DNA from: an uncultured Candidatus Saccharibacteria bacterium
GTDB taxonomy: Bacteria; Patescibacteriota; Saccharimonadia; CAILAD01; BJGX01
Direction of reading: 5' to 3'
Assembly: GCA_964552475.1 (NCBI GenBank)
Contig: CAZKFZ010000005.1
Coordinates: forward strand, 6,224 to 70,223
DNA: 64,000 nucleotides
Both the position numbers and the translations under genes were made by a program. Below the pieces are notes generated by a model. The model worked only from the letters and a program-made list of their open reading frames with translations, did not search any database and was not told where the DNA came from. Numbering within the stretch: position 1 is the stretch's first letter; the number at the start of each line of letters is the position of its first letter. Shown here in pieces: positions 4,816 to 29,554 of the stretch.

Positions 4816-4818
4816 TAG

Positions 4819-5895: not shown

Positions 5896-5898
5896 AGG

Positions 5899-7404: not shown

Positions 7405-7497
7405 ACCATATCAGCTCTATACTTATGGTAGACCTGTGTCTGGGTTGGGTGTACAATATTCACGTAAATTATTCGCACCCTTTGATTGGAGAGATTA

Positions 7498-8022: not shown

Positions 8023-8074
8023 CATATGCCCTCTCATATCATGAGAGGGTTTTTATTTGGAGTATAATAAAGAG

Positions 8075-8500
8075 ATGATTATGCGACTTATGTATACCCA
8101 CTACTTCTATGTTATTATTTTGATACTCAGTATTGGAGGTTTGCTTCTAGCCGACCGACGACTAAGACTGGCTTTTTGGCACAACAAAATTGCAAGTACA
8201 AAAGCAGTTGGCTATACCATGCTACTACTACTAATATTTGATGTTGCCGGGGTAATAAATAAAATATTCTCAACTAATCAAGATTATGTAGTGAGAATAA
8301 ATATTATTTCACCCAATATACCTATTGAAGAAATAATATTTTTGTTTATGCTATGCTATGTGACGCTGATTTTGTATCAATTAGTTGGAAGGCTAGAAGT
8401 ATTGAAACAAGTTGGGGCTAATAAGGGGCGAAAAAATGACAAGCTAGATCAGCCCCAAGCTACACTTAATGTGAGATCCAGGAAAAAAAATCATGACTAG
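8075..8500 (+). CDS. Lycopene cyclase domain protein, subunit 1 of a heterodimeric carotenoid cyclase (CrtYe/CrtYc-like)
   Basis: Small hydrophobic protein with the conserved hPhEE motif (NIPIEEIIFLF). The ORF track starts at 8057; ATG at 8075 is the more likely start. Adjacent to a second cyclase-domain gene and a UbiA elongase. Confidence 0.65.
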   Translation: MIMRLMYTHYFYVIILILSIGGLLLADRRLRLAFWHNKIASTKAVGYTMLLLLIFDVAGVINKIFSTNQDYVVRINIISPNIPIEEIIFLFMLCYVTLILYQLVGRLEVLKQVGANKGRKNDKLDQPQATLNVRSRKKNHD

Positions 8501-8786
8501 CTACTTAGTACTGGTAACTAGCTTGGTAGTAGTATCAGTCTTAATACTGGTGCGTTTGCGCATTACCCCACCAAAACCCAAAGTTTTGATGGTAGTAGGG
8601 CTAATTCTACTCATTGCTATGTTGGTATTTGACAACTACCTCACTACTCTGCCTATTGTGATGTATAATAATAGTTCTATATTAGGTTATAAAGTTGGCA
8701 ATATACCTATAGAAGATTTTGGCTACCTAGTTGCTGTAATACTACTGGTGCCCGCTTTGTTTGAATATTTTAAGAGCAATAAATAA
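8493..8786 (+). CDS. Lycopene cyclase domain protein, subunit 2 (CrtYf/CrtYd-like)
   Basis: 97 aa with 3 TM segments and motif NIPIEDFGYLV (the PxE(E/D) motif of lycopene cyclase domain proteins). Overlaps the upstream gene by 8 nt, which suggests translational coupling. Confidence 0.65.
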   Translation: MTSYLVLVTSLVVVSVLILVRLRITPPKPKVLMVVGLILLIAMLVFDNYLTTLPIVMYNNSSILGYKVGNIPIEDFGYLVAVILLVPALFEYFKSNK

Positions 8787-8787
8787 T

Positions 8788-15834: not shown

Positions 15835-16533
15835 TTACTCACTATCTGGTGTTGATGCTACGCCGGCATCTTGTGCGTTAGGGCTCATAAATACCGAGTC
15901 GACTTGACCATTCTCATTAATAACAATTGCCACAATATAACCATCAGTTGACTGCCCCACAATAGCGTTGTCACCAAAGTACTGAGCATTATTCCCCTGT
16001 TGAAGTTGTTGAAGTTGATTAGCAGTTAGGTTCCAGTTCCATCCGCCAGTTGAGCTATTTAAATATCCAAGCGAGTCGAGCACTTGTTGCCTAGTTTGTT
16101 GCGATGTACTCGAGCCCGCTACTACCACTGTAGTGTTTTCACCAAGAAGCGATGTAATATCTTGATACTTCTTGCCATCAATAAGAGCTTGAATCTTTTT
16201 GCGCGTGTCTTCAGACACGGCACTGTCGGTAGAGCCAGGGTTCTTATTGTTTTTACCTATAAGATTGTTGTTCTTTTCTTCTGCTTGATTGAGCTTAGTT
16301 TGTAAATCTTTATTTTTACTATCGGCATCACTCAAACGTTTGTTGTAAATTGATGTCACAATAAAATAGGTTGCTATATTTGTTACCAAAACCACTATTA
16401 CTACTAAAATAACCCAATAAAGAGGTGGTATGTTAGGCAATACAGATGTGGTGTTTTTTCCACCTTTGCCTTTTAGAGAGTTATTTTTAGATTTGTCGTC
16501 TGTTCTGTTTGAGAGTGTGTAACGTTCTGGCAT
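15835..16533 (-). CDS. Single-pass membrane protein with extracellular coiled-coil and Gln-rich domain, unknown function
   Basis: ORF with one TM (WVILVVIVVLVTNIATYFIV) and a Lys/Asn-rich helical region. Confidence 0.5.
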   Translation of the reverse strand: MPERYTLSNRTDDKSKNNSLKGKGGKNTTSVLPNIPPLYWVILVVIVVLVTNIATYFIVTSIYNKRLSDADSKNKDLQTKLNQAEEKNNNLIGKNNKNPGSTDSAVSEDTRKKIQALIDGKKYQDITSLLGENTTVVVAGSSTSQQTRQQVLDSLGYLNSSTGGWNWNLTANQLQQLQQGNNAQYFGDNAIVGQSTDGYIVAIVINENGQVDSVFMSPNAQDAGVASTPDSE

Positions 16534-16574
16534 AAGTACTTTTGATTATGACAAAATATAGCTCAATAAGCAAC

Positions 16575-16599
16575 AAAAAGCCCCTCCTGGGGGCTTTTT
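16575..16599. terminator. Intrinsic terminator immediately 3' of the major pilin gene
   Basis: aaaaagcccctcctgggggcttttt: GC stem with a tetraloop, A-run and T-run flanks. Lies 24 nt after the pilin stop. Confidence 0.7.
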
Positions 16600-16622
16600 G
16601 AAGACCATTAGTCAGTTAATGA

Positions 16623-17081
16623 CTAACGAGTTACTGAAATTGTGGCGCCTTGTTCTGCATCTGGAGCAGAGACCACTAGTCTATTGTTAGCATCTTTTAC
16701 AATAGTATATTTGGTGTCGTTAGCTGTTGCAGTGCTAGGATCTTTTGGTATAGATACTAAGTATTTACCATTGGTAGTAAGTACAGCTAGGTCTGTAAGG
16801 CCAGTGCAAGTTCCGCCAGTTACACAGATATCGTTAGCTGGGGCTGTACCGGCTACTAGAATGCTTGCAGGTAAGTTACCATTGTTATCAATAGAGTACT
16901 GATAAGCAGCGTTAATAATAGTATTTACGTCGGCTCTACGCTGGGCATTACGTGTGTCAGCCAACTGCTTGGCAGGGTTAACCGCAAGTATAACAATACC
17001 AGCAAGAATTGCGATAATTGCAACTACTAGCAAAACTTCAATTAAGGTAAATCCTTTTTTACTTTTTAATAATTTGAACAT
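16623..17081 (-). CDS. pilA: Type IV major pilin (PilA-like)
   Basis: Class III signal MFKLLKSKKG/FTLIEVLLVVAIIAILAGIV with Gly-1, Phe+1 and Glu+5. 152 aa with a C-terminal Cys pair (CVTGGTCTG). Has its own terminator. Confidence 0.85.
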   Translation of the reverse strand: MFKLLKSKKGFTLIEVLLVVAIIAILAGIVILAVNPAKQLADTRNAQRRADVNTIINAAYQYSIDNNGNLPASILVAGTAPANDICVTGGTCTGLTDLAVLTTNGKYLVSIPKDPSTATANDTKYTIVKDANNRLVVSAPDAEQGATISVTR

Positions 17082-17174
17082 CTTTTTTTAACCTCTTTCT
17101 TTAGTAATTTTTACTTACTATCATATTAAAGTACTTATGCTTATTTTGCAATAGGCTTTTTTTATTTTTTTCAA

Positions 17175-17600
17175 TTAAGGAATTTCTTGCCAACTGTAGA
17201 TATTTAGAGTAGGTCCTACCCTGTTTAATGTGATATTTACACGCTTTTTAATATTTTTACCACTACCGTCTGCAACACCCACAGCATCGATCACATAATT
17301 GGGGCTAGTTCCGGTAATAGTATAATTGCATGTAGTCTTGTTTGTAGCGTCTATTGTATAGTTAGCACTAGATGGCGTAGTAAGCACAATATTTGCCTGT
17401 ATTGCAGCAAGGGCCAGTTCGGCGCAACCATCGGCGCCAGCCTTTGCTTGAGCAGATTGCTGAATGCTTAGGCTAGTTTTACTGGATGTGACGCCGGAAA
17501 AAAGTAGCAGCAAGCCCACAAGTGAGCCTATTGCTGCTATGGCAATTACAGTTATTAAAGTAATATAGCCCGATTGTTGATTGATATTTGGTGTATTCAT
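17175..17600 (-). CDS. Minor pilin-like protein (PilX-like; prepilin-like N-terminus lacking Glu+5)
   Basis: N-terminus QQSG/YITLITVIAIAAIGSLVG is hydrophobic and pilin-like, but has T at +5. Confidence 0.5.
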   Translation of the reverse strand: MNTPNINQQSGYITLITVIAIAAIGSLVGLLLLFSGVTSSKTSLSIQQSAQAKAGADGCAELALAAIQANIVLTTPSSANYTIDATNKTTCNYTITGTSPNYVIDAVGVADGSGKNIKKRVNITLNRVGPTLNIYSWQEIP

Positions 17601-18124
17601 CTTAATGTTGAGACTCCATAAAAGTTCTTCTGATACTGCAAAGTAGATTTATTACTAGGGTTGTAGTAAGTGAGAGTAAAGCTTATATCTATTGAGTCTC
17701 TACCACCACTAATCGCCTTGTTGGTAAAACTCAAGTTACTAACGCTTACTCTAGAGCTAGTTAAGTATTCGGGGCTTGCACTACCAACTTTCATACGCAT
17801 CTTATTTACATTTTGGTCGATTGCGGTGTCGAATATCGTTGGGTTATTTGTAGCAGTAGTTGTATTAAGTGATAAGCTAGATGACGAATTGCCTACCGAA
17901 GGATTATTTATGGTGCTAGCATTGCGAAGGCTCTGGGTGATACTCGATATTATCAACCGTCCCTGAGCATCAACCTCTTGGTTTATTTGGTTTTGAATAC
18001 GTTGATTGGTAATCGAGACCGCCACAGCAAGTATTGATCCAATAATAAGTGAAAATACCGTAATATAAAGTAGCATTTCAATTATTGTGTAGCCTTTTTG
18101 ATTGTCTTTATCAATGTGTTTCAT
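17597..18124 (-). CDS. Type IV minor pilin / pseudopilin
   Basis: Prepilin motif NQKG/YTIIEMLLYITVFSLIIG. Confidence 0.7.
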   Translation of the reverse strand: MKHIDKDNQKGYTIIEMLLYITVFSLIIGSILAVAVSITNQRIQNQINQEVDAQGRLIISSITQSLRNASTINNPSVGNSSSSLSLNTTTATNNPTIFDTAIDQNVNKMRMKVGSASPEYLTSSRVSVSNLSFTNKAISGGRDSIDISFTLTYYNPSNKSTLQYQKNFYGVSTLR

Positions 18125-18137
18125 GCTTTAATCATCC

Positions 18138-19925
18138 TTAGTTATCCCACGCAAAATCAAACCATACGGCATCGTTGGTTGGCCCACTGGACAGGTGATT
18201 AGTCCATGCCTTACCCGATGGAGTAGTAAATAGAGCGTTGGTAGTACCGTCTAAAACAACTGAGTATAGATTACGGAAAGCATCTGATACCATCACCATC
18301 GTTTCGTCAGCATTTGGTCTTCCCACTATTCGTGTTTTTCCAATATTATCACTGGCGTTTGGAAGAGCGATAGCACTATTCGCCCATGAGTTAATACTAC
18401 TATTGTATATTTTTAACTTACCGCTTCTAGTATTATCAGAGTACGCGATAACCCCATCGTTAGAATTAACGTATTTATAAGCAACATCAAAGGTTATTTG
18501 ACCTCCATAGTCGGTATTGTTGGTAATTAAGTTATTTGTAGGCGTAACAAAACCAACTCCAACAGGATTAATTTCATAGCAAAATATTGAACCAGGATTG
18601 ATATCGCTTTTAGCGCATGCAATAAGTTCATTTGCGGTGTTGGGTCTAGAAATTTGACGTATAGAAATAATTGATTGTCCAGATGGAATATTGCTACTAG
18701 TAATAACCGAGCCCCAACTACCCGACCCGCTACCATCAATAGTGAATGTTTGAGCGCGCAATGCACGATCATTGGCGGATGTGGTATATATTACAGTTCC
18801 TTGGCTGGTATTAACATTACTCCAGTCAAAATCTACAAGTAGCGAACCATTACCGGCTGAGCTATTAGTGTGTTGAGTGTATGTTGACCATACACTATTA
18901 GAATAGAAACTAGTGTTTACTTTATAATCATTTGTTAAAAAAACCGTCATCATATCATTAGATGCAGGTCTAGCTTTTATCATCATTGCGGTAATGTAAT
19001 TATTGCTAGAACCAATCTGACCCAAACCAACCTCCGGACCCCATGTAGCACCATTAAATGATCTCGATTTGGGATTATTACTCCCATCAGAATAGACAGC
19101 CACAAACGAACCGTCGGCCAAGAAATCTCCTCCGTAATTACCTGAGTTTAGTGCGCTACTAGACGTCCACTGAGCTAGTAATTGTGGAGTTGCCCAACTA
19201 GAGCCGTTCCAAGCTGTAGCATACATATACTGCTTAGTGCCATCATAGTGGCGAGAAACCATCATTTTTGCCGAACCAGTTTGAGCAGAATAGAGTTTTA
19301 GAGAACGCGGTACTCTATTATTTGTGGTAGTACTCACATCTGGTATTACAGTCTGGGCCGTCCACGACCCAGTGGTTAACAACTGCCTAAACTCCATTCT
19401 GTCAGTTGTGGTACCGCCATCGGCATAGACAAAAAGTCCACTCTTAATGGGGGCTGAGGTTGGTTGTCTCCAGTTAGCGAAATACATTACAACACTGAGT
19501 GAAGAACTGACTACCAGAGTGCGTTGCCAGCTCACTGTGACTGTAACTTTTCGTGAGCCATTTGGTCCATCACTAAAATTAACTATTCTAGTATATTTAC
19601 TATCTACTAGCTGAGGAATTGTAGTTAGCTGCCACTGGTTGTTGATAGAACTAATATAATAATTAGTACCGTTTGAATAGCTAGATAAATTGGAGTAGTT
19701 GGGATTGGCAATATTACGTACCACCTCCAGACCAGCACTAGATAGCTCAGTAGCCCTTGTACGCTCTCCGGCTTGTCTTACCCCATCTCGGCCGTATATA
19801 AAAGAACTCAACATTACCGTACCAAAGAGTGCAAATATTGCTACGGCCAATAAAATCTCTATCAAACTAAATCCCATTGGCATCGATGTAGCTGTAAGAT
19901 TTTTTGATGTCATGCTAATACTCAA
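18138..19925 (-). CDS. Giant prepilin-type protein (595 aa), candidate tip-associated minor pilin or adhesin
   Basis: N-terminal MPMG/FSLIEILLAVAIFALFG class III signal, followed by a ~560-aa Ser/Thr/Asn-rich beta-type domain. Confidence 0.7.
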   Translation of the reverse strand: MSISMTSKNLTATSMPMGFSLIEILLAVAIFALFGTVMLSSFIYGRDGVRQAGERTRATELSSAGLEVVRNIANPNYSNLSSYSNGTNYYISSINNQWQLTTIPQLVDSKYTRIVNFSDGPNGSRKVTVTVSWQRTLVVSSSLSVVMYFANWRQPTSAPIKSGLFVYADGGTTTDRMEFRQLLTTGSWTAQTVIPDVSTTTNNRVPRSLKLYSAQTGSAKMMVSRHYDGTKQYMYATAWNGSSWATPQLLAQWTSSSALNSGNYGGDFLADGSFVAVYSDGSNNPKSRSFNGATWGPEVGLGQIGSSNNYITAMMIKARPASNDMMTVFLTNDYKVNTSFYSNSVWSTYTQHTNSSAGNGSLLVDFDWSNVNTSQGTVIYTTSANDRALRAQTFTIDGSGSGSWGSVITSSNIPSGQSIISIRQISRPNTANELIACAKSDINPGSIFCYEINPVGVGFVTPTNNLITNNTDYGGQITFDVAYKYVNSNDGVIAYSDNTRSGKLKIYNSSINSWANSAIALPNASDNIGKTRIVGRPNADETMVMVSDAFRNLYSVVLDGTTNALFTTPSGKAWTNHLSSGPTNDAVWFDFAWDN

Positions 19926-20370
19926 TTACTCCTTTTGAGCTAATTGTGATGGTTTTGTTGTCACCCTTGTTTACAACGGTAACAGCACCTGGTACAGATA
20001 ACTTTCCACTAAATTTATCAAAAACAAATTCAGTTTGACCAGAAAAAGTAATAGATGAGGTAAAAGGATAAACCTCATCCTTGCTTTGATTTCTACTTGC
20101 ATAGCTATTTCCCTGGAATATTGTAATGCTGCCATTTTGCACGCGCACACCCCAGTTGCCATCATTCTCACCCGCGCGTGCTAAGCTTTGAGCACGATAC
20201 ATATCTTGAACAATAATACTACTAATTACTTCTAAATCGTTTCGCAACACATAACGCTGAAGTACTGGTGCTGTTACCATTAGAATTATAGAAATTATTC
20301 CAATAGAAAGCATTAGCTCAATTAAGGTGAAGCCGTATTTATGTCTAAGAAGGTATTTTTTAAAAACCAT
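19915..20370 (-). CDS. GspH/FimT-like pseudopilin
   Basis: Prepilin motif HKYG/FTLIELMLSIGIISIIL; 151 aa. Confidence 0.7.
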   Translation of the reverse strand: MVFKKYLLRHKYGFTLIELMLSIGIISIILMVTAPVLQRYVLRNDLEVISSIIVQDMYRAQSLARAGENDGNWGVRVQNGSITIFQGNSYASRNQSKDEVYPFTSSITFSGQTEFVFDKFSGKLSVPGAVTVVNKGDNKTITISSKGVIEY

Positions 20371-20375
20371 ATCAA

Positions 20376-21563
20376 TTATTTTATCCCTCCAAGCAAACCA
20401 TATATCGGCAATATTACCGATAATGCAATAAACAATACACCTACCGCAATAGCAATTAGGATAATAGGCTCTAACACAGTTTCTAAGTTCTCGGCCGTTA
20501 TCTCTACCTTCTCTTCATAAGTACTGCTAATTTTGAGCAAAGTATCGGAAAGGTTGCCCGACTGTTCAGAGCTAACAATAAGTTGTCTTATTGGTCCAGG
20601 CAGAGCTTTTCTATCTGGAATCTTCTCTAGAGTAGTAGCCAGAGACTGACCTTCTTCTACATTGATTCTAATAATTTTTGCAATATTGCTATACCTTTCT
20701 GTAGCAAAAGAATCTACTAAAGAGTCGAGCACATCTACAATTGGTAGGCCGGCCTCTAATAGTGAGCCCATGATAAAGCCAAACCTAGAAATTTCGGATT
20801 GATAAATAAGAGTTTTTACGCCAGGAATAACATAGAGTACTTTCTCGGCTAAAGTTCTGATAGGTTTTACATAAGCAATACCCATACCAATAATAAAAAC
20901 TACCACCACAAAAAGACCCGACAATAGTAATCCCCAGTGCGACCAAAACAGCCCAAAGCCAATCATTACTTTTGTAAGTAAGTTTAGTTCTACATCTAAA
21001 CCTTCAAATATTTCTGCTAATCTTGGCAATAGAAATAAGCTTATACCACTACCAACTATTAGCATAAGCACCACAAGAAATGTAGGATAAATAAGTGCTG
21101 AACGCACTTTAGAGTTAATCATGTTAATTCTGTGGGTTTGCTCAGAAACAACTTTTAAGTTCTCAGATAGTCGTCCAGACTCTTCACCGGCCCTAATTAA
21201 TGCGACCGAAGAGGCGTTTAACATACCCGACTCACCTATGGCCCGCCATAACGTGCCACCCTCGTCTACTTTATCGCGCATAGCAAGGATTGCTGCCTTA
21301 ACTTTTTTTGTAGGTGCTTCCTTACTAAGTATTTCAAGTGAGAGACCTACAGTTACTCCTGTAGATATTAGCATGCTCAAAGTCTCGGTAAAATACTCTC
21401 GGGCATCTCTGCTAACGGCGTGCTTGGTAAGTGGTTTAGATTTAGTTTTTTTCTCTACAACTTCGCCCGATTTTTTTTCTACAGTAATTTTGGACTCGTC
21501 TTTAGATGGCCCATCATTACTTACACCGTCCACTTTTATAGGATTATTTTGGTTCGGCGACAC
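20376..21563 (-). CDS. pilC: Type IV pilus inner-membrane platform protein PilC (GspF family)
   Basis: GspF-domain repeats (sequences in the pilus-locus finding); 3 TM; sits downstream of pilB. Carries a Lys-rich N-terminal extension. Confidence 0.85.
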   Translation of the reverse strand: MSPNQNNPIKVDGVSNDGPSKDESKITVEKKSGEVVEKKTKSKPLTKHAVSRDAREYFTETLSMLISTGVTVGLSLEILSKEAPTKKVKAAILAMRDKVDEGGTLWRAIGESGMLNASSVALIRAGEESGRLSENLKVVSEQTHRINMINSKVRSALIYPTFLVVLMLIVGSGISLFLLPRLAEIFEGLDVELNLLTKVMIGFGLFWSHWGLLLSGLFVVVVFIIGMGIAYVKPIRTLAEKVLYVIPGVKTLIYQSEISRFGFIMGSLLEAGLPIVDVLDSLVDSFATERYSNIAKIIRINVEEGQSLATTLEKIPDRKALPGPIRQLIVSSEQSGNLSDTLLKISSTYEEKVEITAENLETVLEPIILIAIAVGVLFIALSVILPIYGLLGGIK

Positions 21564-23316
21564 GCATTAACTCCTCTAGGGTTGATCTACCATTTTGTAC
21601 TTTTATTATCCCGTCTTCAAACAACGTACGGGCGCCTTCTTTTCTAGCTTGATCCCATATTAGTTTGCTAGATGGATTTTTGACTATCAACTCTTTAATT
21701 GCTGGCGACACTACTAGTATTTCGTATAAAGCTACCCTGCCTTTGTAGCCTGAGTAATTACAAGACTCACAACCCTCACCATAATAAAGTGTCACTTGAG
21801 GTCTTTTGAAATACATTTCGGCATGAGGAATCTTTTTTTGTATGTCACTAAGATTTACCAAGTAACTTTTTCTACAAGTAACACAAATGGTTCGCATTAA
21901 TCGTTGGGCAATTACGGCGTTTAGAGTGGATGAAAGTAAGAATGGCTCTACTCCCATATCTATAAAACGAGGTATTGCCGTTGCAGAGTCGTTGGCGTGA
22001 AAAGTTGAGAATAGTAAGTGTCCGGTTAACGCTGCATTTACGGCCATTTTGGCTGTCTCTTTGTCGCGAATTTCACCAACTAAAATTATGTCGGGGTCTT
22101 GTCGAACAATAGTTCTTAAACCCTCGGCAAAAGTAAGGTTTGTAGCACGGTTTACCTGTATTTGATTCACGCCAAAGAGTTTGTACTCTACAGGGTCTTC
22201 TATGGTGGTGATATTTATATCTGAGCTGTTTAGTTGTTTGAGCATAGCATAAAGCGTAGTCGTCTTACCCGAGCCAGTTGGCCCGGTAGTCACTATCATA
22301 CCAAATGGTCTGTGCATTTGAGTTTCAATCAGTTTAAGATCAAAGACATTAAAACCAAGGTTTTTGAAGTTGAGGTTTTTGGAGTTACCTGCGAGCAATC
22401 TAAGAGCAACCTTCTCTCCATTGAGTGTAGGAACAATAGAAATACGAATATCTACAGATTCTTCATCTACACTATAGCGTATAGCACCATCTTGGCTAGC
22501 GCCGTGTTCGTCTATTCGCATTCTAGCCTGCACCTTCAATCTATTTAAGACATTTTCGTAATACTGAATAGGTATTTGACCAGCTTCACGCAATACACCA
22601 TCAATACGAAACCTTATTAAAACGACTTTTTCTTCTGGCTCAAAATGAATATCACTCACATCAAACACAATAGCATCTTTAATAATTTCGTCTATTATTT
22701 CTGGCGCAACACGTTCTTGCTCTTGAATTATTTGGTTAAATCGCGTAGCTAGTGGCTTACGGTAATGCGCCAAAATCACGTCAATATCGTCACTTAGTGA
22801 GTATGCAATAGATACCGGTAGGCCATTGGTGTAGGTAGCTAGCTTTTCTTTTAGGCCTACTTGGCCGGGCTCGTCGGTAACAAAAACGGCTCTAGTTTTG
22901 TCTACATAATAAAATATTACTCGGTTTTCAGTTGTGACATTTTTAGGTATTTTAAGTACCAAATCCTTGGGGGGTTGATTGTTTTCTAAATCTATATAGG
23001 AGGTGTTGTAATAGTTGGCTAGAGTTTGGCCAATAAAATCTTTATTGACGATATTTTGAGATATCAAATAATCTATAAAGTTAATGTTGTGTAGCTTGGT
23101 AATGTGCTCAATAGTATCTAGCTGTTTTTGAGAAATCTTATTTTGGCTAAGCATAGCCTCTTTAATACGCTTGGCCGTATTAATTCTAGAGTTCTGGGCT
23201 TCTTCAATAGTTACGCCTTGAGCAGCAGTAACTTTTGGCTTCTGACTGCTCTCGTCTTTTGTAGCATTTTGATCAACTACATCTGAAGATTTGGGGGATT
23301 GATTTGTTTTATCCAT
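21544..23316 (-). CDS. pilB: Type IV pilus assembly ATPase PilB (GspE family)
   Basis: Walker A GPTGSGKTT; Asp and His boxes; C-terminal tetracysteine CVTCRKS...CESCNYSGYKGR; 590 aa. Confidence 0.9.
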   Translation of the reverse strand: MDKTNQSPKSSDVVDQNATKDESSQKPKVTAAQGVTIEEAQNSRINTAKRIKEAMLSQNKISQKQLDTIEHITKLHNINFIDYLISQNIVNKDFIGQTLANYYNTSYIDLENNQPPKDLVLKIPKNVTTENRVIFYYVDKTRAVFVTDEPGQVGLKEKLATYTNGLPVSIAYSLSDDIDVILAHYRKPLATRFNQIIQEQERVAPEIIDEIIKDAIVFDVSDIHFEPEEKVVLIRFRIDGVLREAGQIPIQYYENVLNRLKVQARMRIDEHGASQDGAIRYSVDEESVDIRISIVPTLNGEKVALRLLAGNSKNLNFKNLGFNVFDLKLIETQMHRPFGMIVTTGPTGSGKTTTLYAMLKQLNSSDINITTIEDPVEYKLFGVNQIQVNRATNLTFAEGLRTIVRQDPDIILVGEIRDKETAKMAVNAALTGHLLFSTFHANDSATAIPRFIDMGVEPFLLSSTLNAVIAQRLMRTICVTCRKSYLVNLSDIQKKIPHAEMYFKRPQVTLYYGEGCESCNYSGYKGRVALYEILVVSPAIKELIVKNPSSKLIWDQARKEGARTLFEDGIIKVQNGRSTLEELMRVAEPK

Positions 23317-23348
23317 ATATAAAGCTAAATAACCTCAATTCCGGTTAT

Positions 23349-23381
23349 GTTAATTATACCCCATGGCGGGGCATAATTAAC
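23349..23381. promoter_or_regulatory. 14-bp inverted repeat with one mismatch (gttaattatacccc atggc ggggcataattaac) lying between the membrane-protein gene and the pilB start
   Basis: Read directly from the sequence. Stable stem-loop or operator-like palindrome in the pilB upstream region. Confidence 0.45.
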
Positions 23382-23415
23382 CAATAAAACACAATTTTTT
23401 TACTTCAACATTTTG

Positions 23416-24273
23416 TTATAAATGGTGTTTGTTAGTAGCAACTCTTGCTAAAGCCAAAAGCGCAATCGTGCCAAGACCAAATAGCGCAATAAGCGACATT
23501 GGCTCGGTAATAGTAGTAGGCTTTGCAGTTAGTAAAGGACTTAAGACTACAGATACTACAGGTATTATAAACAACACAATTGGCTCTGTTAGAAACCTTC
23601 GGCTTGGCAGTGCACTTAGGTTGGGTGATTTAGTAATATAGCCAAGTATTAGCGATATGATTAAAAACAATACTACAGTCTCCCCTAACCAACCAGTAAA
23701 GTTCTGGTATGGCACACCAAAAAATATTCCACCTTGGGTCCATATATATATCTTATCGACAGTTGAGTTAATGGGGTCATTGGCCAGATCGGATAGTGTC
23801 ATAAGCATACCGCTTAGCAAGCTTAGTATTACTATTTCTAAGCCCTTTACCAACTTGAGCCACCCCAATATTATTCTAATTACTAGATAACTACTATAGG
23901 CTAAACTAAAGTATGTGAGCATTAAAAGAACCGGTACGCCACCTAGCAAAGGACCATTGCCTATTAGATTGTAGTAGTACGAACCAAAAATGTGGCCGGT
24001 ATTGACACCCAAGTACTCGGCTATAAAAGTAACAATGTAAGTAACCACAAAAAATATGAGTATATTTTTACCCCCCAAATACCTAGCGCCATGCAAGAAC
24101 ACAAAGATTGCCGGCAACAAGTAGATTATTAGGGCAAGTGGGCCAGCAATAGTTGGTAGCAGAGCGGTAATTAATAGTGTTACTAATATTACCCAGCGCA
24201 GTGGCGCAAATTTATCGTGCTGCTTAGGGCGCTTTGATGTCGCTTGTGCTTTCATTTGTTTAAATTGTAGCAC
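23416..24273 (-). CDS. 8-TM integral membrane protein of unknown function
   Basis: 285 aa, many hydrophobic helices; no CxxC pairs, so it is not a PilD prepilin peptidase. Confidence 0.5.
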   Translation of the reverse strand: MLQFKQMKAQATSKRPKQHDKFAPLRWVILVTLLITALLPTIAGPLALIIYLLPAIFVFLHGARYLGGKNILIFFVVTYIVTFIAEYLGVNTGHIFGSYYYNLIGNGPLLGGVPVLLMLTYFSLAYSSYLVIRIILGWLKLVKGLEIVILSLLSGMLMTLSDLANDPINSTVDKIYIWTQGGIFFGVPYQNFTGWLGETVVLFLIISLILGYITKSPNLSALPSRRFLTEPIVLFIIPVVSVVLSPLLTAKPTTITEPMSLIALFGLGTIALLALARVATNKHHL

Positions 24274-25095: not shown

Positions 25096-26379
25096 TTACT
25101 TTATGAGAGGTGGTCGCTTACCAATATCGGTACGATATTGCATGCCTTTGAAGTGAATCTTTTTTACTGCTTTATAAGCTTTGGTAAGGGCTACCTCAAG
25201 AGTGTTACCAGTTGCCGTTACATTGAGTACTCTGCCACCGTTAGTAACTAATTTATCGCCGTCTAATCGGGTACCAGCATGGAATATTACTACCTCTTCA
25301 AGTTCTTCGGCCTCAGCTATTCCTGTTATAACTTCGCCTTTGTTATAGTCACCTGGGTATCCACCAGATGCCAATACAATACAACAAGCAAACTCGTCGG
25401 CCCACTCAATATTTTGTGAGGCTAGATCACCCTTAGCGCAGGCTATCAATATTTCTAGTAGATCACTTTTTAGTAGGCGCATATAGCTTTGGGTTTCGGG
25501 GTCGCCAAAACGAGCGTTATACTCTATAACATTATAACTTTGTTTAGTTAACATTAAGCCAGGGTAAAGCAAACCACTAAACTTACTATTTTTTGTTTTG
25601 AGTTCTTTAAGTATTGGGCCAACTAGTTGCTCACCTAGTTGTTCGGTTCGTTCATGGCTCAGCCATGGTACCGGAGCAATTGTACCCATACCGCCGGTAT
25701 TTAAGCCAGTATCTCCTTCACCAATAGGCTTATGATCTTGCGAACTAGGAAACATTACATAGTTGTTACCATCACTAATTGCGTGCAAACTCACCTCTTG
25801 ACCGTGCAAAAACTCTTCAATAATTACTACGTCACCAGACTTACCAAAAACCTTGTCTTTCATTATAGAACCAAGAGCTTTTTGGGCTTCTTTTTTGTTC
25901 TTACATATAACTACGCCTTTACCTAGGGCCAAGCCGTCGGCTTTTATTACAATAGGAAACTTAATATTATCTAAATACTCAACTGCTTTTTTGTGGTTAG
26001 TAAACTCTCTGTATCTTGCGGTATGTACACCCGCACTTTTCATGATATTCTTTGCAAACGACTTAGACGACTCAATTTGAGTGGCTTTTTTTGTTGGTCC
26101 AAAGACTAAAATATTATTCTCTATTAGGTCGTCGGCTAGCCCAGAGGCCAAAATATCATCGGGCCCGATTACTACAAGGTCTATTTTGTTTTGCTTGCAA
26201 ATGTCTATTATTTGTTTATGATCGGCTAAATTCAAACTTAAGTTTTTAGCCAACTCGCTGGTTCCGCCATTGCCTGGCGCTACAAATAAGCTATTTAGTT
26301 TGGACGATTGTTTTATTTTCCAGGCGATAGAGTGTTCTCTACCACCCGATCCTATTACCAATACATTGAGTTTCTTCAC
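25096..26379 (-). CDS. purD: Phosphoribosylamine--glycine ligase (GAR synthetase)
   Basis: N-terminal VLVIGSGGREHSIAWKI and an ATP-grasp core; 427 aa. Confidence 0.9.
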   Translation of the reverse strand: MKKLNVLVIGSGGREHSIAWKIKQSSKLNSLFVAPGNGGTSELAKNLSLNLADHKQIIDICKQNKIDLVVIGPDDILASGLADDLIENNILVFGPTKKATQIESSKSFAKNIMKSAGVHTARYREFTNHKKAVEYLDNIKFPIVIKADGLALGKGVVICKNKKEAQKALGSIMKDKVFGKSGDVVIIEEFLHGQEVSLHAISDGNNYVMFPSSQDHKPIGEGDTGLNTGGMGTIAPVPWLSHERTEQLGEQLVGPILKELKTKNSKFSGLLYPGLMLTKQSYNVIEYNARFGDPETQSYMRLLKSDLLEILIACAKGDLASQNIEWADEFACCIVLASGGYPGDYNKGEVITGIAEAEELEEVVIFHAGTRLDGDKLVTNGGRVLNVTATGNTLEVALTKAYKAVKKIHFKGMQYRTDIGKRPPLIK

Positions 26380-26606
26380 TTGGTTTTCTTACCCTCGCTA
26401 GTTTTTTTCATAAGCAAATAGAAAACCGAATAAATTAGTAAGCCAGGAACAATACCTGTAAGAATAATCAAGACTACAGCCCCCACTCTCACCCAGGCAG
26501 GATCTTGTTTGTAATATTCGGCTATACCACCGGTGACCCCTGTAAATTTAACGTCTTTTTTAGATAGTTTAATTTCTGTTCTTTGTTTTTTAGATTTGTG
26601 TGTCAT
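26376..26606 (-). CDS. PspC-domain membrane protein
   Basis: Motif GVTGGIAEYYKQDPAWVRVGAVVL matches the PspC domain. One TM. Four-nt overlap with the purD start. Confidence 0.6.
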   Translation of the reverse strand: MTHKSKKQRTEIKLSKKDVKFTGVTGGIAEYYKQDPAWVRVGAVVLIILTGIVPGLLIYSVFYLLMKKTSEGKKTK

Positions 26607-26726
26607 ATTGTCCTACTCGTTCTATAGCCGAATCAAAATTGTATTTTGATTCGAAAAGGAGATTTATTGCATAAGTTGTAGCAGAATTGTCTGACAATTT
26701 TGCGAAAACTCGAGCAATAAATCGAC

Positions 26727-26813
26727 GTGGTGCCGGGTGAGAGATTCGAACTCCCGAAGGCACAAGGCCGTCAGATTTACAGTCTGATGCGTTTAACCAC
26801 TTCGCTAACCCGG
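26727..26813 (-). tRNA. tRNA-Tyr (anticodon GTA), class II with a long variable arm, CCA encoded
   Basis: The reverse complement gives GCCGGGT TA GCGA AGTGGTTAAA CGC A TCAGA CTGTAAA TCTGA CGGCCTTGTGCCTTCG GGGAG TTCGAAT CTCTC ACCCGGC A CCA. Confidence 0.85.
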
Positions 26814-26831
26814 CATAAAATATAAAGTTAC

Positions 26832-26906
26832 TGGAGCCTCGAGCGAGGATTGAACTCGCGACCTCTTCCTTACCATGGAAGCGCTCTACCACTGAGCTAT
26901 CGAGGC
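26832..26906 (-). tRNA. tRNA-Thr (anticodon GGT)
   Basis: The reverse complement gives GCCTCGA TA GCTC AGTGGTA GAGC G CTTCC ATGGTAA GGAAG AGGTC GCGAG TTCAATC CTCGC TCGAGGC T CCA. Confidence 0.8.
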
Positions 26907-28664: not shown

Positions 28665-29554
28665 GACAGTTTAGTTAAAATATTTTTTAACTCAGTAGGT
28701 AGGCTAGCCCTAAAAACTTTTAGAGTTTTTGAGGGTAGTTCTAAACTTATTGAGCTAGCATGCAAAAATTGTCGAGTAAATAGACTATCAACTTTTTTGT
28801 TTCCGTATTGTTTGTCGCCTGCAACCGGGTGCCCAATATGTGCAAATTGTACCCTAATTTGGTGTGTACGACCAGTCAAGATTGAAACATCTAGTAAGCT
28901 ATAGCCGTTATATTCCTTAATAAGTTGGTACTCACTTATTGCAGACTTTCCAGAGCTGTGTATGCTCATCTTCTGAGGATTTTTTATACCACGTTTGATT
29001 GGTAACTCAAGTCTAGCACTATCACTATTGGGTCTCCCTACTACTAAAGCTGTATAATGTTTTTTAACTCTTCGCTGTTTAAAAGCTGACAATAAAAATT
29101 CCTTGGCGTGATCGTTTCTTGCCAAAATCATTACTCCAGAAGTGTCTTTATCTAAACGATGTACAATGCCTGGTCTTACTGGGTCATTGTCGTTAATTAA
29201 GTCTTTAAATGCTCCTGCAACTGATGACTGTGGATTATTTGCTGTAGTATAAACTACTAATCCAGCAGGCTTGTTTATAACTAACACATCTTCGTCTTTG
29301 TAAATAATTTTTGGCACTACATCGGGACTAATAAGTAAGCTTAGGGCGTTTATAGTTGGAAGTTCACCATATATTAAAGAGCCATTTTTTAATTTTTCCG
29401 ATGCCTTTACTACCCTTTCATCTACCTTTACGCTACCCGATTGTATTTGTTCTCTCCATCTAGCACGACTAAACTTAGGGTAAACTTCAGCCAATACAAA
29501 ATCTACTCGCTTACCCTCCTGCGCTTCTTGAGCAGTAAAAGAAAAATTTTTCAT
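28661..29554 (-). CDS. RluA-family (RluD-like) 23S rRNA pseudouridine synthase with N-terminal S4 domain
   Basis: Catalytic motif HRLDKDTSGVMILAR and an S4-like N-terminus; 297 aa. Confidence 0.85.
   Translation of the reverse strand: MKNFSFTAQEAQEGKRVDFVLAEVYPKFSRARWREQIQSGSVKVDERVVKASEKLKNGSLIYGELPTINALSLLISPDVVPKIIYKDEDVLVINKPAGLVVYTTANNPQSSVAGAFKDLINDNDPVRPGIVHRLDKDTSGVMILARNDHAKEFLLSAFKQRRVKKHYTALVVGRPNSDSARLELPIKRGIKNPQKMSIHSSGKSAISEYQLIKEYNGYSLLDVSILTGRTHQIRVQFAHIGHPVAGDKQYGNKKVDSLFTRQFLHASSISLELPSKTLKVFRASLPTELKNILTKLS

What the first reader, a model, noticed from the sequence alone, without database searches (positions are those of the whole stretch)
16575..23400. Type IV pilus locus with a 595-aa giant prepilin and a palindromic element in the pilB leader
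The locus runs pilB, pilC, a GspH-like pseudopilin, a 595-aa prepilin (MPMG/FSLIE signal followed by a large Ser/Thr/Asn-rich domain), a minor pilin, a PilX-like protein lacking Glu+5, and the major pilin with its own terminator. PilC shows GspF-domain repeats (LEILSKEAPTKKVKAAILAMRDKVDEGG, IRAGEESGRLSENL). There is no pilD, pilT or pilMNOPQ in the window. The giant prepilin would place a large domain at the pilus tip or along the shaft, which makes it a candidate adhesin. That is relevant if this is an epibiotic CPR organism. A 14-bp near-perfect inverted repeat at 23349-23381 sits right upstream of pilB, a possible operator or attenuator.
Basis: partly seen in the sequence, partly recalled or inferred. 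Interest (0 to 1): 0.6.

Follow-up and report, generated by a model that had tools for sequence, protein, structure and literature searches.

The report
Pilus operon with propeller-bearing tip pilin
A Saccharibacteria (CPR) type IV pilus operon encodes a 595-residue minor pilin with a large predicted beta-propeller head, a likely pilus-tip adhesin conserved across many CPR phyla, whereas the palindrome upstream of pilB is mostly a lineage-specific hairpin lying over the promoter's -10 box.

Summary
All seven genes, the terminator and the 14-bp inverted repeat lie at the stated coordinates.

- **Organism and operon.** The window is from a Saccharibacterium. The operon reads pilB, pilC, an H-like minor pilin, a 595-aa pilin, a J-like pilin, a small Glu5-less pilin and the major pilin. 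This order recurs in 34 of 38 related loci from Saccharibacteria, Microgenomates, Parcubacteria and Peribacteria.
- **The 595-aa protein.** It is intact and conserved, with 62 full-length homologues and 424 cluster representatives at E<=1e-30. Gly-1 and Glu+5 are invariant. The pilin module is GspI/PilV/ComGE-like.
- **The head domain.** The "Ser/Thr/Asn-rich domain" is a confidently predicted beta-propeller. Repeat analysis suggests eight blades arranged as (AB)4. It matches no Pfam or NCBIfam family, and its nearest solved folds are PLL-type lectins.
- **Closest precedent.** It is a modular minor pilin and most probably a tip-displayed binding head. PilX2 of N. lyticus TM7x is the closest precedent, but PilX2 carries a different propeller (seven blades, RCC1) on a different subunit.
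- **The palindrome.** It is real but found only in the closest relative. Its 3' arm is the conserved TATAAT box. An attenuator role is unlikely.

This is a new member of a known kind and is of moderate interest.

The parts
23349..23381 (-). 14-bp-arm inverted repeat with a 5-nt loop. It lies between the stop of the cruF-like gene (23416) and the pilB start (23316).
   Evidence: Searches show it is one of four such hairpins in the window, against 0.1 expected from shuffles. Across 10 orthologous upstream regions only 57% of cells pair, compared with 38-47% for slid controls. The 5' arm is present only in the window and L005.
23353..23358 (-). Conserved TATAAT, the putative -10 box of the pilB promoter. 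It lies inside the 3' arm of the palindrome.
   Evidence: It is invariant in the window and in L001-L005, L007, L008, L010, L011 and L014, about 40-45 nt upstream of the pilB ATG. No transcription start has been mapped.
23329..23348 (-). Short conserved stem-loop (A)TAACC-N8-GGTTA(T), at the predicted 5' end of the pilB mRNA.
   Evidence: In alignment A3, 96% of cells pair, against 18-44% for slid controls. A C-G to G-C change occurs in L007, L008 and L010. This rests on only 10 sequences, so the evidence is modest.
21544..23316 (-). pilB, the assembly ATPase (590 aa), with an N-terminal MshEN-type domain.
   Evidence: Pfam T2SSE E=2e-121 and MshEN E=2e-6. NCBIfam PilB scores 472 bits and GspE 463 bits, both below their equivalog cut-offs.
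20376..21563 (-). pilC, the platform protein (395 aa). It overlaps the pilB stop by 20 nt.
   Evidence: Pfam T2SSF E=3e-44 in two stretches. GspF scores 192 bits, below its cut-off.
19915..20370 (-). p151, a minor pilin of the H type (GspH/ComGD-like) with motif G/FTLIE.
   Evidence: N_methyl scores 29.4 bits, above its cut-off. ComGD gives E=8e-9 over residues 13-143 but is below its cut-off. It is always directly upstream of the giant pilin in related loci.
19461..19925 (-). p595 residues 1-155. These comprise the leader ending in Gly18, the Phe+1/Glu+5 motif, the alpha1 helix (residues 21-72) and a small beta-sheet (88-149). Together they form an I-type (GspI/PilV/ComGE-like) pilin module.
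   Evidence: Gly-1 is present in 39 of 39 sequences and Glu+5 in 44 of 44. N_methyl matches 25 of 47 family members. ComGE matches 23, XpsI 12, PilV 11 and GspI 10, all below their cut-offs.
18138..19448 (-). p595 residues 160-595 plus the stop codon: the beta-propeller head. It probably has eight blades arranged as four two-blade units. The last strand (589-593) closes onto the first strands (163-192).
   Evidence: AF2 pLDDT is mostly above 90. HHalign self-matches occur at offsets of about 108, 216 and 325 residues, with E=6e-12, 2e-16 and 2e-5. An eight-segment alignment shows alternating RP-type and DF-type blades. The best compact Foldseek matches are PLL/PHL/BP39L lectins, with target-normalised TM 0.62-0.66. 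No Pfam or NCBIfam family matches the region in 47 of 47 members.
17597..18124 (-). p175, a minor pilin of the J type (ComGF/GspJ-like, weakly supported) with motif G/YTIIE.
   Evidence: N_methyl scores 23.1 bits, above its cut-off. ComGF gives E=1.6e-5 but is below its cut-off. It is syntenic in nearly all loci.
17175..17600 (-). p141, a small pilin-fold protein lacking Glu+5 (G/YITLI) and carrying two invariant Cys. It is the candidate cap subunit, occupying the K/ComGG position. Its start overlaps the p175 stop by 4 nt.
   Evidence: It matches no family. Alignment A2 shows no Glu+5 in 25 of 25 sequences. The AF2 model has pLDDT 81, with helix 10-69 and five strands. The best fold match is the Glu5-less minor pilin PilA of S. 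sanguinis, with probability 0.99, E=0.13 and TM about 0.5.
17123..17151 (-). Promoter-like site for the major pilin, TTGCAA-17 nt-TAATAT. The spacer motif TAAGCATAAGT is conserved. A Shine-Dalgarno GAGG lies at 17092-17095.
   Evidence: The sequence is. The site is conserved in L002-L007, L009 and L010. It matches only 8 of 12 sigma-70 consensus positions, so the consensus scan did not list it.
16623..17081 (-). p152, the major pilin (152 aa) with motif KKG/FTLIE.
   Evidence: N_methyl gives E=1.4e-8 and TIGR02532 scores 34.5 bits, above its cut-off. GspG and ComGC match below their cut-offs. Among the operon's pilins it keeps the highest identity in distant loci, 40-63%.
16574..16600 (-). Intrinsic-terminator-like hairpin with a T-run after the major pilin gene.
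   Evidence: One search reports 11 pairs, 6 of them G-C, a 5-nt loop and the tail TTGCTTATTG.

Best explanation
**The operon.** The region is a compact seven-gene type IV filament operon of a Saccharibacterium. It encodes the assembly ATPase PilB, the platform PilC, four minor pilins in H-I-J-K order, and the major pilin. The major pilin has its own promoter and terminator.

**The 595-aa protein.** It is the I-type (GspI/PilV/ComGE-like) minor pilin. A large beta-propeller, probably eight-bladed, is joined to it by a linker of about 10 residues.

**Inferred mechanism.**
1. A prepilin peptidase encoded elsewhere cleaves after Gly18.
2. The four minor pilins assemble in the membrane into the priming complex. 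This complex becomes the pilus tip, with the Glu5-less p141 on top.
3. The propeller is therefore displayed once per filament at the tip.
4. There it acts as the ligand-binding head, most likely for a glycan on a host cell.

In effect it combines the PilV and PilY1 of diderm T4aP in one chain. It parallels the modular pilins PilB and PilC of Streptococcus sanguinis and PilX2 of N. lyticus TM7x.

**The upstream palindrome.** It is not a conserved regulatory element. It is a lineage-specific hairpin that ends the cruF-like gene region and overlaps the conserved -10 box of the pilB promoter.

**Shown and inferred.** The gene content, family conservation, signal motif, predicted fold and synteny are shown. 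Processing, tip location, the ligand and the promoter are inferred.
For: - **Gene identities.**
- **An intact, conserved family.** There are 62 full-length homologues of 575-636 aa. An exhaustive profile search finds 424 representatives at E<=1e-30.
- **Class III motif.** Gly-1 is present in 39 of 39 sequences and Glu+5 in 44 of 44.
- **I-type assignment.** Sub-threshold but consistent hits are ComGE in 23, XpsI in 12, PilV in 11 and GspI in 10 of 47 members. The gene also sits between an H-like and a J-like gene.
- **Structure.** The AF2 model has pLDDT 86.6. It shows a pilin helix and sheet, a low-confidence linker at 154-156, and an all-beta domain with pLDDT above 90.
- **Lectin-like neighbours.** PLL, PHL and BP39L match at E about 1e-8 with target-normalised TM 0.62-0.66.
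- **Synteny.** pilB-pilC-H-I*-J-(K)-major is found in 34 of 38 loci across several CPR phyla.
- **The Glu5-less p141.** It has a small pilin fold and most resembles the Glu5-less S. sanguinis PilA. PilA nucleates a tip complex of modular adhesin pilins (PMC9934059).
- **Extracellular binding context.** The same propeller occurs in giant proteins with ConA-like lectin arrays. The same pilin module is fused to DUF2341 plus Laminin_G_3 in P0236.
- **Composition.** Gly+Ala+Ser+Thr (GAST) is 38.5% in p595 against 23.6% in PilB, the trend reported for exposed pilins (PMC11623550).
- **Functional precedent.** Deleting the propeller-bearing pilX2 in TM7x halves host binding but does not stop filament extrusion (PMC11623550).
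- **Palindrome.**
Against: - **No experimental data.** There are none for this family. Tip location and ligand binding are inferred from analogy and gene order.
- **Sub-threshold profile hits.** The I, J and H assignments rest on HMM hits below the curated cut-offs. The N_methyl hit of p595 itself scores 13.9 bits against a cut-off of 21.2.
- **Conservation pattern.** The propeller is as conserved as the pilin module, at 34% against 32% identity to distant phyla. That is unexpected for a host-specific adhesin. It fits a conserved ligand or a structural or priming role better.
- **Structural matches.** The lectin matches are to seven-bladed proteins at 11-15% identity, and many unrelated propellers score similarly.
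- **Blade number.** It was inferred from repeats and DSSP, not from coordinates.
- **Missing partners.** PilD, PilT and PilMNO were not found in the window. No second PilB-like ATPase lies within 10 kb in any related locus. Processing and retraction partners are therefore unknown.
Confidence: 0.6

Rival explanations
1. The propeller has a conserved structural or priming role rather than being an adhesin. Like the C-terminal propeller of PilY1, it would plug or stabilise the minor-pilin complex, start assembly, or modulate extension and retraction. Any binding function would lie elsewhere.
For: The propeller is conserved as strongly as the pilin module from Saccharibacteria to Microgenomates. 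It has 18 invariant positions, including ring-like alternating Arg and Asp in the inner strands. It is a fixed component of the operon in 34 of 38 loci. PilY1 and the minor pilins prime the T4aP (cited in PMC11623550 and PMC9934059).
Against: In TM7x the propeller pilin PilX2 is dispensable for filament extrusion but is needed for host binding (PMC11623550). The same pilin module occurs with other C-terminal modules and as a short pilin, so the head behaves as an exchangeable effector. The propeller also occurs in giant lectin-rich surface proteins.
Confidence: 0.2
2. The operon is a Com-type DNA-uptake filament. It has seven genes, no PilMNO and no PilT, with the peptidase encoded elsewhere, as in comGA-GG. 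The propeller pilin would capture DNA or serve nucleotide scavenging.
For: The best NCBIfam hits for the pilins are ComGD, ComGE, ComGF and ComGC. PilB and PilC also hit ComGA and ComGB. The gene content matches comGA-GG. CPR bacteria are naturally competent and lack nucleotide synthesis (PMC10633639).
Against: All Com hits fall below their cut-offs. PilB is 590 aa with MshEN and N-terminal domains, unlike the short ComGA, whose match covers only residues 210-475. The propeller is neutral to acidic across the family, with median net charge -3 and median pI 5.7, which is poor for DNA binding. TM7x T4P-2 mutants show no competence defect (PMC11623550).
Confidence: 0.1
3. The propeller is an enzyme, for example a sialidase-like or other glycoside hydrolase or a peptidase-associated propeller. 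It would be carried to the host surface on the pilus tip to remodel the host envelope.
For: Foldseek lists sialidase NanC, a putative neuraminidase, prolyl oligopeptidase propellers and a gluconolactonase among hits at E about 1e-7. Several Arg, Asp and Tyr residues are invariant or nearly so.
Against: The sialidase alignments have rmsd above 20 A and TM about 0.3, so they are poor matches. No catalytic family was detected in 47 members. No Asp-box motif was seen. The best compact matches are non-enzymatic lectins.
Confidence: 0.08
4. The 14-bp palindrome at 23349-23381 is a functional operator for a dimeric repressor, or an attenuator controlling pilB.
For: The hairpin is statistically unusual, at 4 in the window against 0.1 expected. 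It overlaps the -10 box, a classic operator position. As RNA the region folds with z=-2.9.
Against: The 5' arm is absent from relatives whose operon proteins are 61-87% identical (L001-L004). L005 carries two uncompensated changes in it. The motif does not recur in the window. A transcript starting downstream of the conserved TATAAT would lack the 5' arm, which rules out attenuation from this promoter. In L004, L007, L008, L010 and L011 an ordinary terminator hairpin occupies the equivalent position. This suggests the element terminates or insulates the upstream gene.
Confidence: 0.12

Closest known systems
PilX2 of Nanosynbacter lyticus TM7x and its orthologue SEML1_0690 of Southlakia epibionticum (PMC11623550; PMC10633639 supplementary tables)
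   Same: It is a Saccharibacteria minor pilin of almost the same size, 590 aa against 595 aa. The layout is also the same: a pilin module up to about residue 160, then a propeller to the C-terminus. It is encoded in a five-pilin gene set. PLL-type lectins are its nearest structural neighbours. It is implicated in host binding.
   Different: PilX2/SEML1_0690 has seven RCC1 repeats (Pfam PF00415) and is classed as seven-bladed. Its pilin module is classed as GspK-like. It is the fourth of the five pilin genes. It has no predicted PilD signal, and its locus lacks pilB and pilC. p595 shows no RCC1 hit in 47 of 47 members and appears eight-bladed. It is I-type and second in gene order, and it has an invariant Gly-1/Glu+5 motif. 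TM7x pilins reportedly have only 10-25% coverage hits in other Patescibacteria phyla, whereas p595 has 97% coverage hits there. I could not compare the sequences directly.
PilY1/PilC tip adhesin with the FimU-PilVWX core minor pilins of diderm T4aP
   Same: A beta-propeller protein is presented at the pilus tip by an H-I-J-K minor-pilin complex. That complex also primes assembly.
   Different: PilY1 is not a pilin. It docks non-covalently and carries the PilY1/PilC propeller signature, a modified seven-bladed fold. No PilY1 family hit was found in any member, and PilY1 is not among the top 50 fold matches. Here the propeller is covalently fused to the I subunit.
Modular pilins PilB (vWA) and PilC (lectin) with the Glu5-less PilA of Streptococcus sanguinis (PMC8179133, PMC9934059)
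   Same: The organism is monoderm-type. A short pilin module is linked to a bulky binding module. A small Glu5-less pilin is encoded in the same operon, and p141's best fold match is this PilA. A tip-complex model has been proposed.
   Different: The modules differ: vWA and ConA-like lectin there, a propeller here. There is no sequence homology. The S. sanguinis system has three minor pilins rather than an H-I-J-K set of four.
GspH-I-J-K, ComGD-GE-GF-GG and XcpUVWX minor pseudopilin sets
   Same: The gene order and number match. The last member lacks Glu5. Weak HMM similarity links p151 to ComGD/GspH, p595 to ComGE/GspI/PilV/XpsI, and p175 to ComGF.
   Different: All matches fall below the curated cut-offs. 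The I subunit normally has about 100-130 residues. The K-position protein here is small, with no GspK alpha-domain.
PLL/PHL/BP39L seven-bladed fucose-binding lectins
   Same: They are the best compact structural matches to the head domain, with E about 1e-8 and target-normalised TM 0.62-0.66. The blades are Trp-rich.
   Different: Sequence identity is 11-15%. They have seven blades against a probable eight. They are soluble tetrameric lectins, not pilins. Their binding-site residues were not compared.

Membership tests
Type IV pilin / class III signal peptide proteins (PF07963, TIGR02532) | A short leader ending in Gly, a hydrophobic residue at +1 and Glu at +5, followed by a hydrophobic segment of about 20 residues | tested here: met
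   The window sequence reads MPMG/FSLIEILLAVAIFALFG. Across the family Gly-1 is present in 39 of 39 sequences and Glu+5 in 44 of 44.
Type IV pilin / class III signal peptide proteins (PF07963, TIGR02532) | A profile score above the curated cut-off | tested here: inconclusive
   p595 scores 13.9 bits against PF07963 (cut-off 21.2) and 14.7 against TIGR02532 (cut-off 16.3). Of 47 family members, 25 match PF07963 at E<=0.01, and several have precomputed PF07963 hits.
Type IV pilin / class III signal peptide proteins (PF07963, TIGR02532) | A long N-terminal alpha1 helix packed on a beta-sheet head | tested here: met
   The AF2 model has helix 21-72 and strands 88-149, with pLDDT about 80-87. This is a prediction only.
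Type IV pilin / class III signal peptide proteins (PF07963, TIGR02532) | Cleavage and N-methylation by a PilD-type prepilin peptidase | not testable with these tools
   No A24 peptidase is encoded in the window. The rest of the genome is not available.
I-type core minor pilin (GspI / PilV / ComGE) | A match to GspI, PilV or ComGE profiles above the cut-off | tested here: not met
   XpsI scores 19.5 bits (cut-off 150) and GspI 16.4 (cut-off 44.35). Across the family ComGE matches 23, XpsI 12, PilV 11 and GspI 10 of 47 members at E<=0.01. These hits mostly cover the N-terminal helix.
I-type core minor pilin (GspI / PilV / ComGE) | A gene position between the H-type and J-type pilin genes in one operon | tested here: met
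   The order is p151 (ComGD/GspH-like), p595, p175 (ComGF-like), p141 (no Glu5). This order is conserved in the related loci.
Modular pilins (sensu Raynaud et al. 2021, PMC8179133) | An N-terminal pilin module joined by a short linker to an additional domain that is not specific to T4P | tested here: met
   The AF2 model shows a pilin module at 19-155, a low-confidence linker around 154-156, and a propeller at 160-595. The propeller also occurs in non-pilin giant proteins.
PilY1/PilC adhesins | The PilY1/PilC C-terminal propeller signature, in a protein that is not a pilin | tested here: not met
   No PilY1/PilC Pfam hit was found in 47 members at E<=0.01. p595 is itself a prepilin. PilY1 is not among the top 50 Foldseek matches.
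PilX2 (TM7x) / SEML1_0690 family | RCC1-repeat seven-bladed propeller | tested here: not met
   No RCC1 (PF00415) hit was found in any of 47 members. The repeat offsets of 108, 216 and 325 residues and the eight-segment alignment indicate eight blades. SEML1_0690 has seven PF00415 repeats.
PilX2 (TM7x) / SEML1_0690 family | Direct sequence homology to PilX2 | not testable with these tools
   The PilX2 and SEML1_0690 sequences could not be obtained. The scan of GTDB species genomes with the family's most conserved motif returned no Nanosynbacter locus.
PLL-type propeller lectins | A seven-bladed fold with inter-blade sugar pockets, and demonstrated sugar binding | tested here: inconclusive
Type IV pilus / type IV filament assembly operon | A PilB/GspE-family ATPase and a PilC/GspF-family platform encoded with the pilins | tested here: met
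   T2SSE gives E=2e-121 and T2SSF gives E=3e-44 in two stretches. Both are adjacent to the pilins and have overlapping or tightly spaced ORFs.
Type IV pilus / type IV filament assembly operon | A retraction ATPase PilT, alignment proteins PilMNO and the peptidase PilD | tested here: not met
   None is in the 64-kb window. No second PilB-like ATPase lies within 10 kb in any of the 38 loci. They may be encoded elsewhere, as in S. epibionticum.

The most novel reading that the evidence does not exclude
The propeller-bearing I-type pilin is an ancestral core part of a pan-Patescibacteria pilus. It would be the common host-contact head of CPR episymbionts. It would recognise a widely conserved bacterial envelope glycan rather than a host-specific receptor, and would stand in for PilY1 in organisms without an outer membrane. 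Its uncatalogued, probably eight-bladed (AB)4 propeller would be a CPR-specific binding module that is reused in their giant surface proteins. Oral Nanosynbacter lineages would later have replaced it with the RCC1-type PilX2.
Probability: 0.25. Interest if true: 0.65.

Novelty: new member of a known kind. Interest (0 to 1): 0.4.

Why it matters
Type IV pili are the best-supported host-attachment organelles of CPR/Patescibacteria. Functional work so far concerns a few cultivated Saccharibacteria, chiefly oral Nanosynbacter and Southlakia strains. Their pilins were reported to be poorly conserved in other phyla.

This locus belongs to a different, compact operon. Its giant propeller pilin is conserved at full length from Saccharibacteria to Microgenomates, Parcubacteria and Peribacteria. 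No domain family yet covers the head. It therefore offers a concrete, widely applicable candidate for how environmental CPR cells contact their hosts.

It also gives a defined domain, residues 160-595, for binding and structural studies. The palindrome has little general significance.

Tried and rejected
- **Profile search of the indexed protein database.** This search was almost redundant with the single-sequence search. It added only four partial hits.
- **PDB sequence search.** A search with the family profile matched only pilin N-termini.
- **Recurring motifs.** I tested whether the palindrome arm or the conserved spacer motif of the major-pilin promoter recurs in the window as a regulon signal. 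Neither is enriched.
- **Downstream genes.** I compared the 232-aa gene downstream of the major pilin with the 189-aa gene in the same position in a Woesebacteria genome. They are not similar, and neither has a Pfam family.
- **Frameshift or artefact.** I rejected this for the 595-aa ORF because its length is conserved in 62 clusters.
- **Low-complexity domain.** I rejected this description because the AF2 model is confidently folded.
- **Attenuator.** I rejected this for the palindrome because its 3' arm is the conserved -10 box.

Full report
**Observation**

- Pfam and NCBIfam identify a PilB/GspE-family ATPase at 21544-23316. T2SSE gives E=2e-121, and there is an N-terminal MshEN domain.
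- They identify a PilC/GspF platform at 20376-21563 with two T2SSF stretches.
- N-terminal methylation motifs score above their cut-offs in the 151-, 175- and 152-aa proteins.
- Read directly from the sequence, four of the five small-N-terminus proteins carry G/(F,Y)xxxE. The 141-aa protein has G/YITLI, with no Glu+5.
- A terminator-like hairpin follows the major pilin gene at 16574-16600.
- The inverted repeat at 23349-23381 has 14-nt arms, one mismatch that is a G-U pair in RNA, and a 5-nt loop. Only four hairpins of this quality occur in the window, against 0.1 expected in shuffles. The other three are A-run/T-run bidirectional terminators.
- No PilD, PilT or PilMNO family was found. I scanned all but eleven short ORFs of at least 100 aa (26590-26892 and ten in the ribosomal-protein region). 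The rest of the window encodes ribosomal proteins, SecY, RpoA/B/C, EF-G/Tu, carotenoid genes and similar housekeeping functions.

**Organism**

Homologues of the giant pilin are named Candidatus Saccharibacteria or Patescibacteria. An identical protein sits on an 89.5-kb NCBI contig. The closest GTDB locus, L005, is an uncultured Saccharibacteria MAG with 86-99% protein identity across the operon.

**The 595-aa protein is real and conserved**
- It has 62 full-length homologues of 575-636 aa at 31-100% identity.
- An exhaustive profile search of 1.84 billion cluster representatives finds 424 at E<=1e-30.
- Gly-1 is present in all 39 sequences that reach that column, and Glu+5 in all 44.
- The window protein's own N_methyl score is below threshold, at 13.9 bits against 21.2. 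Even so, 25 of 47 members match at E<=0.01.
- The most frequent named hits are ComGE (23 members), XpsI (12), PilV (11) and GspI (10). All fall below their cut-offs and mostly cover the helix.
- Its position between a ComGD/GspH-like gene and a ComGF-like gene makes it the I-type member of an H-I-J-K set.

**Predicted structure**

The AlphaFold2 model, built on a 47-sequence alignment, has mean pLDDT 86.6 and pTM 0.74. It shows a helix at 21-72, a small sheet at 88-149, a low-confidence linker around 154-156, and an all-beta domain at 163-595 with pLDDT mostly above 90.

Profile self-alignment of the head gives significant matches at offsets of about 108, 216 and 325 residues, with E=6e-12, 2e-16 and 2e-5. 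The match at about 51 residues is weak. Cutting the domain at the DSSP-defined blades gives eight alignable segments, each with a G-x-x-W motif. "xxRP" and "DFxW" inner strands alternate between blades. The C-terminal strand (589-593) completes the blade begun by residues 163-192. I therefore read it as an eight-bladed (AB)4 propeller. This is inferred from sequence and secondary structure, not from coordinates.

No Pfam or NCBIfam family covers the head in any of the 47 members, and no PDB sequence matches it. By Foldseek, the best compact matches are the seven-bladed PLL, PHL and BP39L fucose lectins, with E about 1e-8, target-normalised TM 0.62-0.66 and 11-15% identity. Many other propellers score similarly with poor superposition.

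**Operon conservation**

Thirty-eight GTDB loci encode a relative. In 34 of them pilC and the H-like gene lie directly upstream. pilB also lies upstream except where the contig ends (L009, L032). The J-like gene, often a small Glu5-less gene, and one or two major-pilin genes usually follow downstream.

The loci come from Saccharibacteria, Levy-, Woese-, Gottesman- and Amesbacteria, Moranbacteria, a Parcubacteria-group MAG and Peribacteria. A few are probably mis-binned MAG contigs. In a complete Woesebacteria chromosome the same seven genes are present, including a 135-aa Glu5-less protein. There they are preceded by a histidine kinase and three single-domain response regulators.

The head is as conserved as the pilin module, at 34% against 32% identity to the distant members.

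**The small Glu5-less protein (p141)**

It matches no family. Its 44 homologues share G/(Y,F)(I,V,M)(T,A,S)L, never have Glu+5, and have two invariant cysteines. The model (pLDDT 81) is a minimal pilin with one long helix and five strands. Its best, though weak, fold match is PilA of Streptococcus sanguinis. PilA is the Glu5-less minor pilin that nucleates a tip complex carrying two modular adhesin pilins (PMC9934059).

**Modularity**

In the exhaustive search, the propeller (profile positions about 145-586) also occurs inside proteins of 1.8-7.9 thousand residues. Three that I scanned carry arrays of ConA-like lectin (Laminin_G_3) domains. Conversely, the same pilin module is found fused to other C-terminal parts, for example DUF2341 plus Laminin_G_3 in P0236, and also as short pilins. 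This is the pattern described for "modular pilins" (PMC8179133).

**Comparison with known Saccharibacteria pili**

Grossman et al. (PMC11623550) showed two pili in N. lyticus TM7x. The thin T4P-2 needs the propeller-bearing minor pilin PilX2 for efficient host binding but not for extrusion.

The supplementary tables of Wang et al. (PMC10633639) list the S. epibionticum orthologue SEML1_0690.
- It is 590 aa, with a pilin module at 31-160 classed with GspK and a seven-bladed domain at 161-590 with seven RCC1 repeats.
- It is the fourth of five pilin genes, in a locus without pilB or pilC.
- The T4P-1 locus of that organism has pilMNO, pilB, pilT, pilC, pilD and different pilins.

So the size and layout are strikingly similar to p595. 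The propeller family, blade number, carrier subunit, gene position and signal motif all differ. The TM7x pilins were also reported to lack full-length homologues in other phyla, unlike p595. I could not obtain the PilX2 sequence for a direct test.

**Mechanism**

The most likely reading is a tip complex of p151 (H), p595 (I), p175 (J) and p141 (cap). This complex would prime polymerisation of p152 and display one propeller per filament as a binding head. The head is probably glycan-directed.
- Shown: genes, motifs, conservation, predicted fold and synteny.
- Inferred: processing by a peptidase encoded elsewhere, tip location and the ligand.

The strong conservation of the head argues for a conserved ligand, or for an additional structural role like that of PilY1. 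A DNA-receptor role is disfavoured by the head's neutral-to-acidic charge across the family and by the PilB-type rather than ComGA-type ATPase. An enzymatic role has no specific support.

**The palindrome**

I aligned the pilB upstream regions of ten Saccharibacteria loci.
- The block TATAAT-(A/T)AACATAA...AATTG...TT is highly conserved about 40-45 nt before the ATG. The 5' arm of the palindrome exists only in the window and in L005, where two substitutions are uncompensated.
- Across the alignment only 57% of palindrome cells pair, against 38-47% for slid controls.
- The 3' arm is simply the conserved -10-like hexamer (23353-23358).
- In L004, L007, L008, L010 and L011 an ordinary terminator hairpin occupies the equivalent place just upstream of the TATAAT.
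- The element is therefore best read as a lineage-specific hairpin that ends or insulates the upstream cruF-like gene. It lacks a T-run. A transcript from this promoter would not contain it, so attenuation is unlikely.
- What is conserved downstream is a short stem-loop at 23329-23348. It pairs in 96% of cells against 18-44% for slid controls, and shows a C-G to G-C swap. It may form the 5' end of the pilB mRNA. With ten sequences this is modest evidence.

The major pilin has its own conserved promoter-like site at 17123-17151 and a Shine-Dalgarno sequence.

**Verdict**

The head is a folded propeller, not a low-complexity region. The protein is a new, widely conserved member of the known class of modular minor pilins. 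It is analogous to PilX2 but apparently distinct from it. The palindrome is real but not a conserved regulator.

Noticed in passing
window 3979-10797 and 23416-24273: This Saccharibacterium carries a carotenoid gene set. It comprises phytoene synthase (3979-4815), a polyprenyl synthetase (4819-5895), a phytoene-desaturase-like oxidase (5899-7404) and a UbiA prenyltransferase fused to a GT2 glycosyltransferase (8761-10797). A CruF-like carotenoid hydratase (23416-24273) lies directly upstream of pilB. The cruF-like gene keeps that position in L001, L002, L003 and L005. The combination resembles C50/bacterioruberin-type pathways and is unusual for a CPR genome.
   Followed up: partly
window 25096-26379: The 427-aa minus-strand ORF at 25096-26379 looks, by reading its translation, like purD (phosphoribosylamine-glycine ligase). 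It has an ATP-grasp-like sequence and a size typical of purD. It was not scanned against any family library. If confirmed, it would be notable because CPR genomes generally lack de novo purine synthesis.
   Followed up: no
window 28688-28759 (+): ARAGORN calls a 'tRNA-Stop' with anticodon tta here. Rfam's tRNA model does not reach its gathering score at this site, and the site lies antisense to coding ORFs. It is probably a false positive.
   Followed up: partly
window 15835-16533 (-); L013, L015, L036: A 232-aa protein with a TM helix, a coiled coil and a C-terminal domain has no family. It follows the major pilin gene throughout the Saccharibacteria relatives. In L013, L015 and L036 a homologue lies between the Glu5-less pilin gene and the major pilin genes, which suggests a link with the pilus. 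It is not similar to the 189-aa gene in the same position in Woesebacteria.
   Followed up: partly
L026 4028-6779 and 13747-15409 (Woesebacteria chromosome CP066693.1): Here the same pilus operon is preceded by an ORF that by its sequence looks like a PAS histidine kinase, and by three single-domain receiver ORFs. One of these (6414-6779) matches Pfam Response_reg at E=1.5e-24. The operon is followed by ORFs that look like an OmpR-type regulator and a kinase. Several other Microgenomates and Parcubacteria loci also end a receiver-like ORF just before pilB.
   Followed up: partly
L006, L007, L009, L013, L015, L021, L028, L034, L036: The major pilin gene is tandemly duplicated in many relatives, whereas the window has a single copy.
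   Followed up: no
proteins P0162, P0170, P0171, P0175, P0180, P0183: The head propeller also occurs inside giant proteins of 1,846-7,926 residues, in up to 27 matched stretches. The three I scanned carry arrays of ConA-like lectin (Laminin_G_3) domains, and one has a Gly-rich domain.
   Followed up: partly
L029 10001-12475; L032 1522-4005: In these two loci roughly 200 extra residues separate the pilin module from the propeller. Several representatives of 733-902 aa show similar insertions or extensions.
   Followed up: no
window 17133-17143 (-): The spacer of the major-pilin promoter contains TAAGCATAAGT. This motif is conserved in relatives down to about 56% protein identity and is partly present in L013. 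It is unique in the window. A related CATAA(C/G) string follows the pilB -10 box. It may be a shared cis-element, but this is untested.
   Followed up: partly
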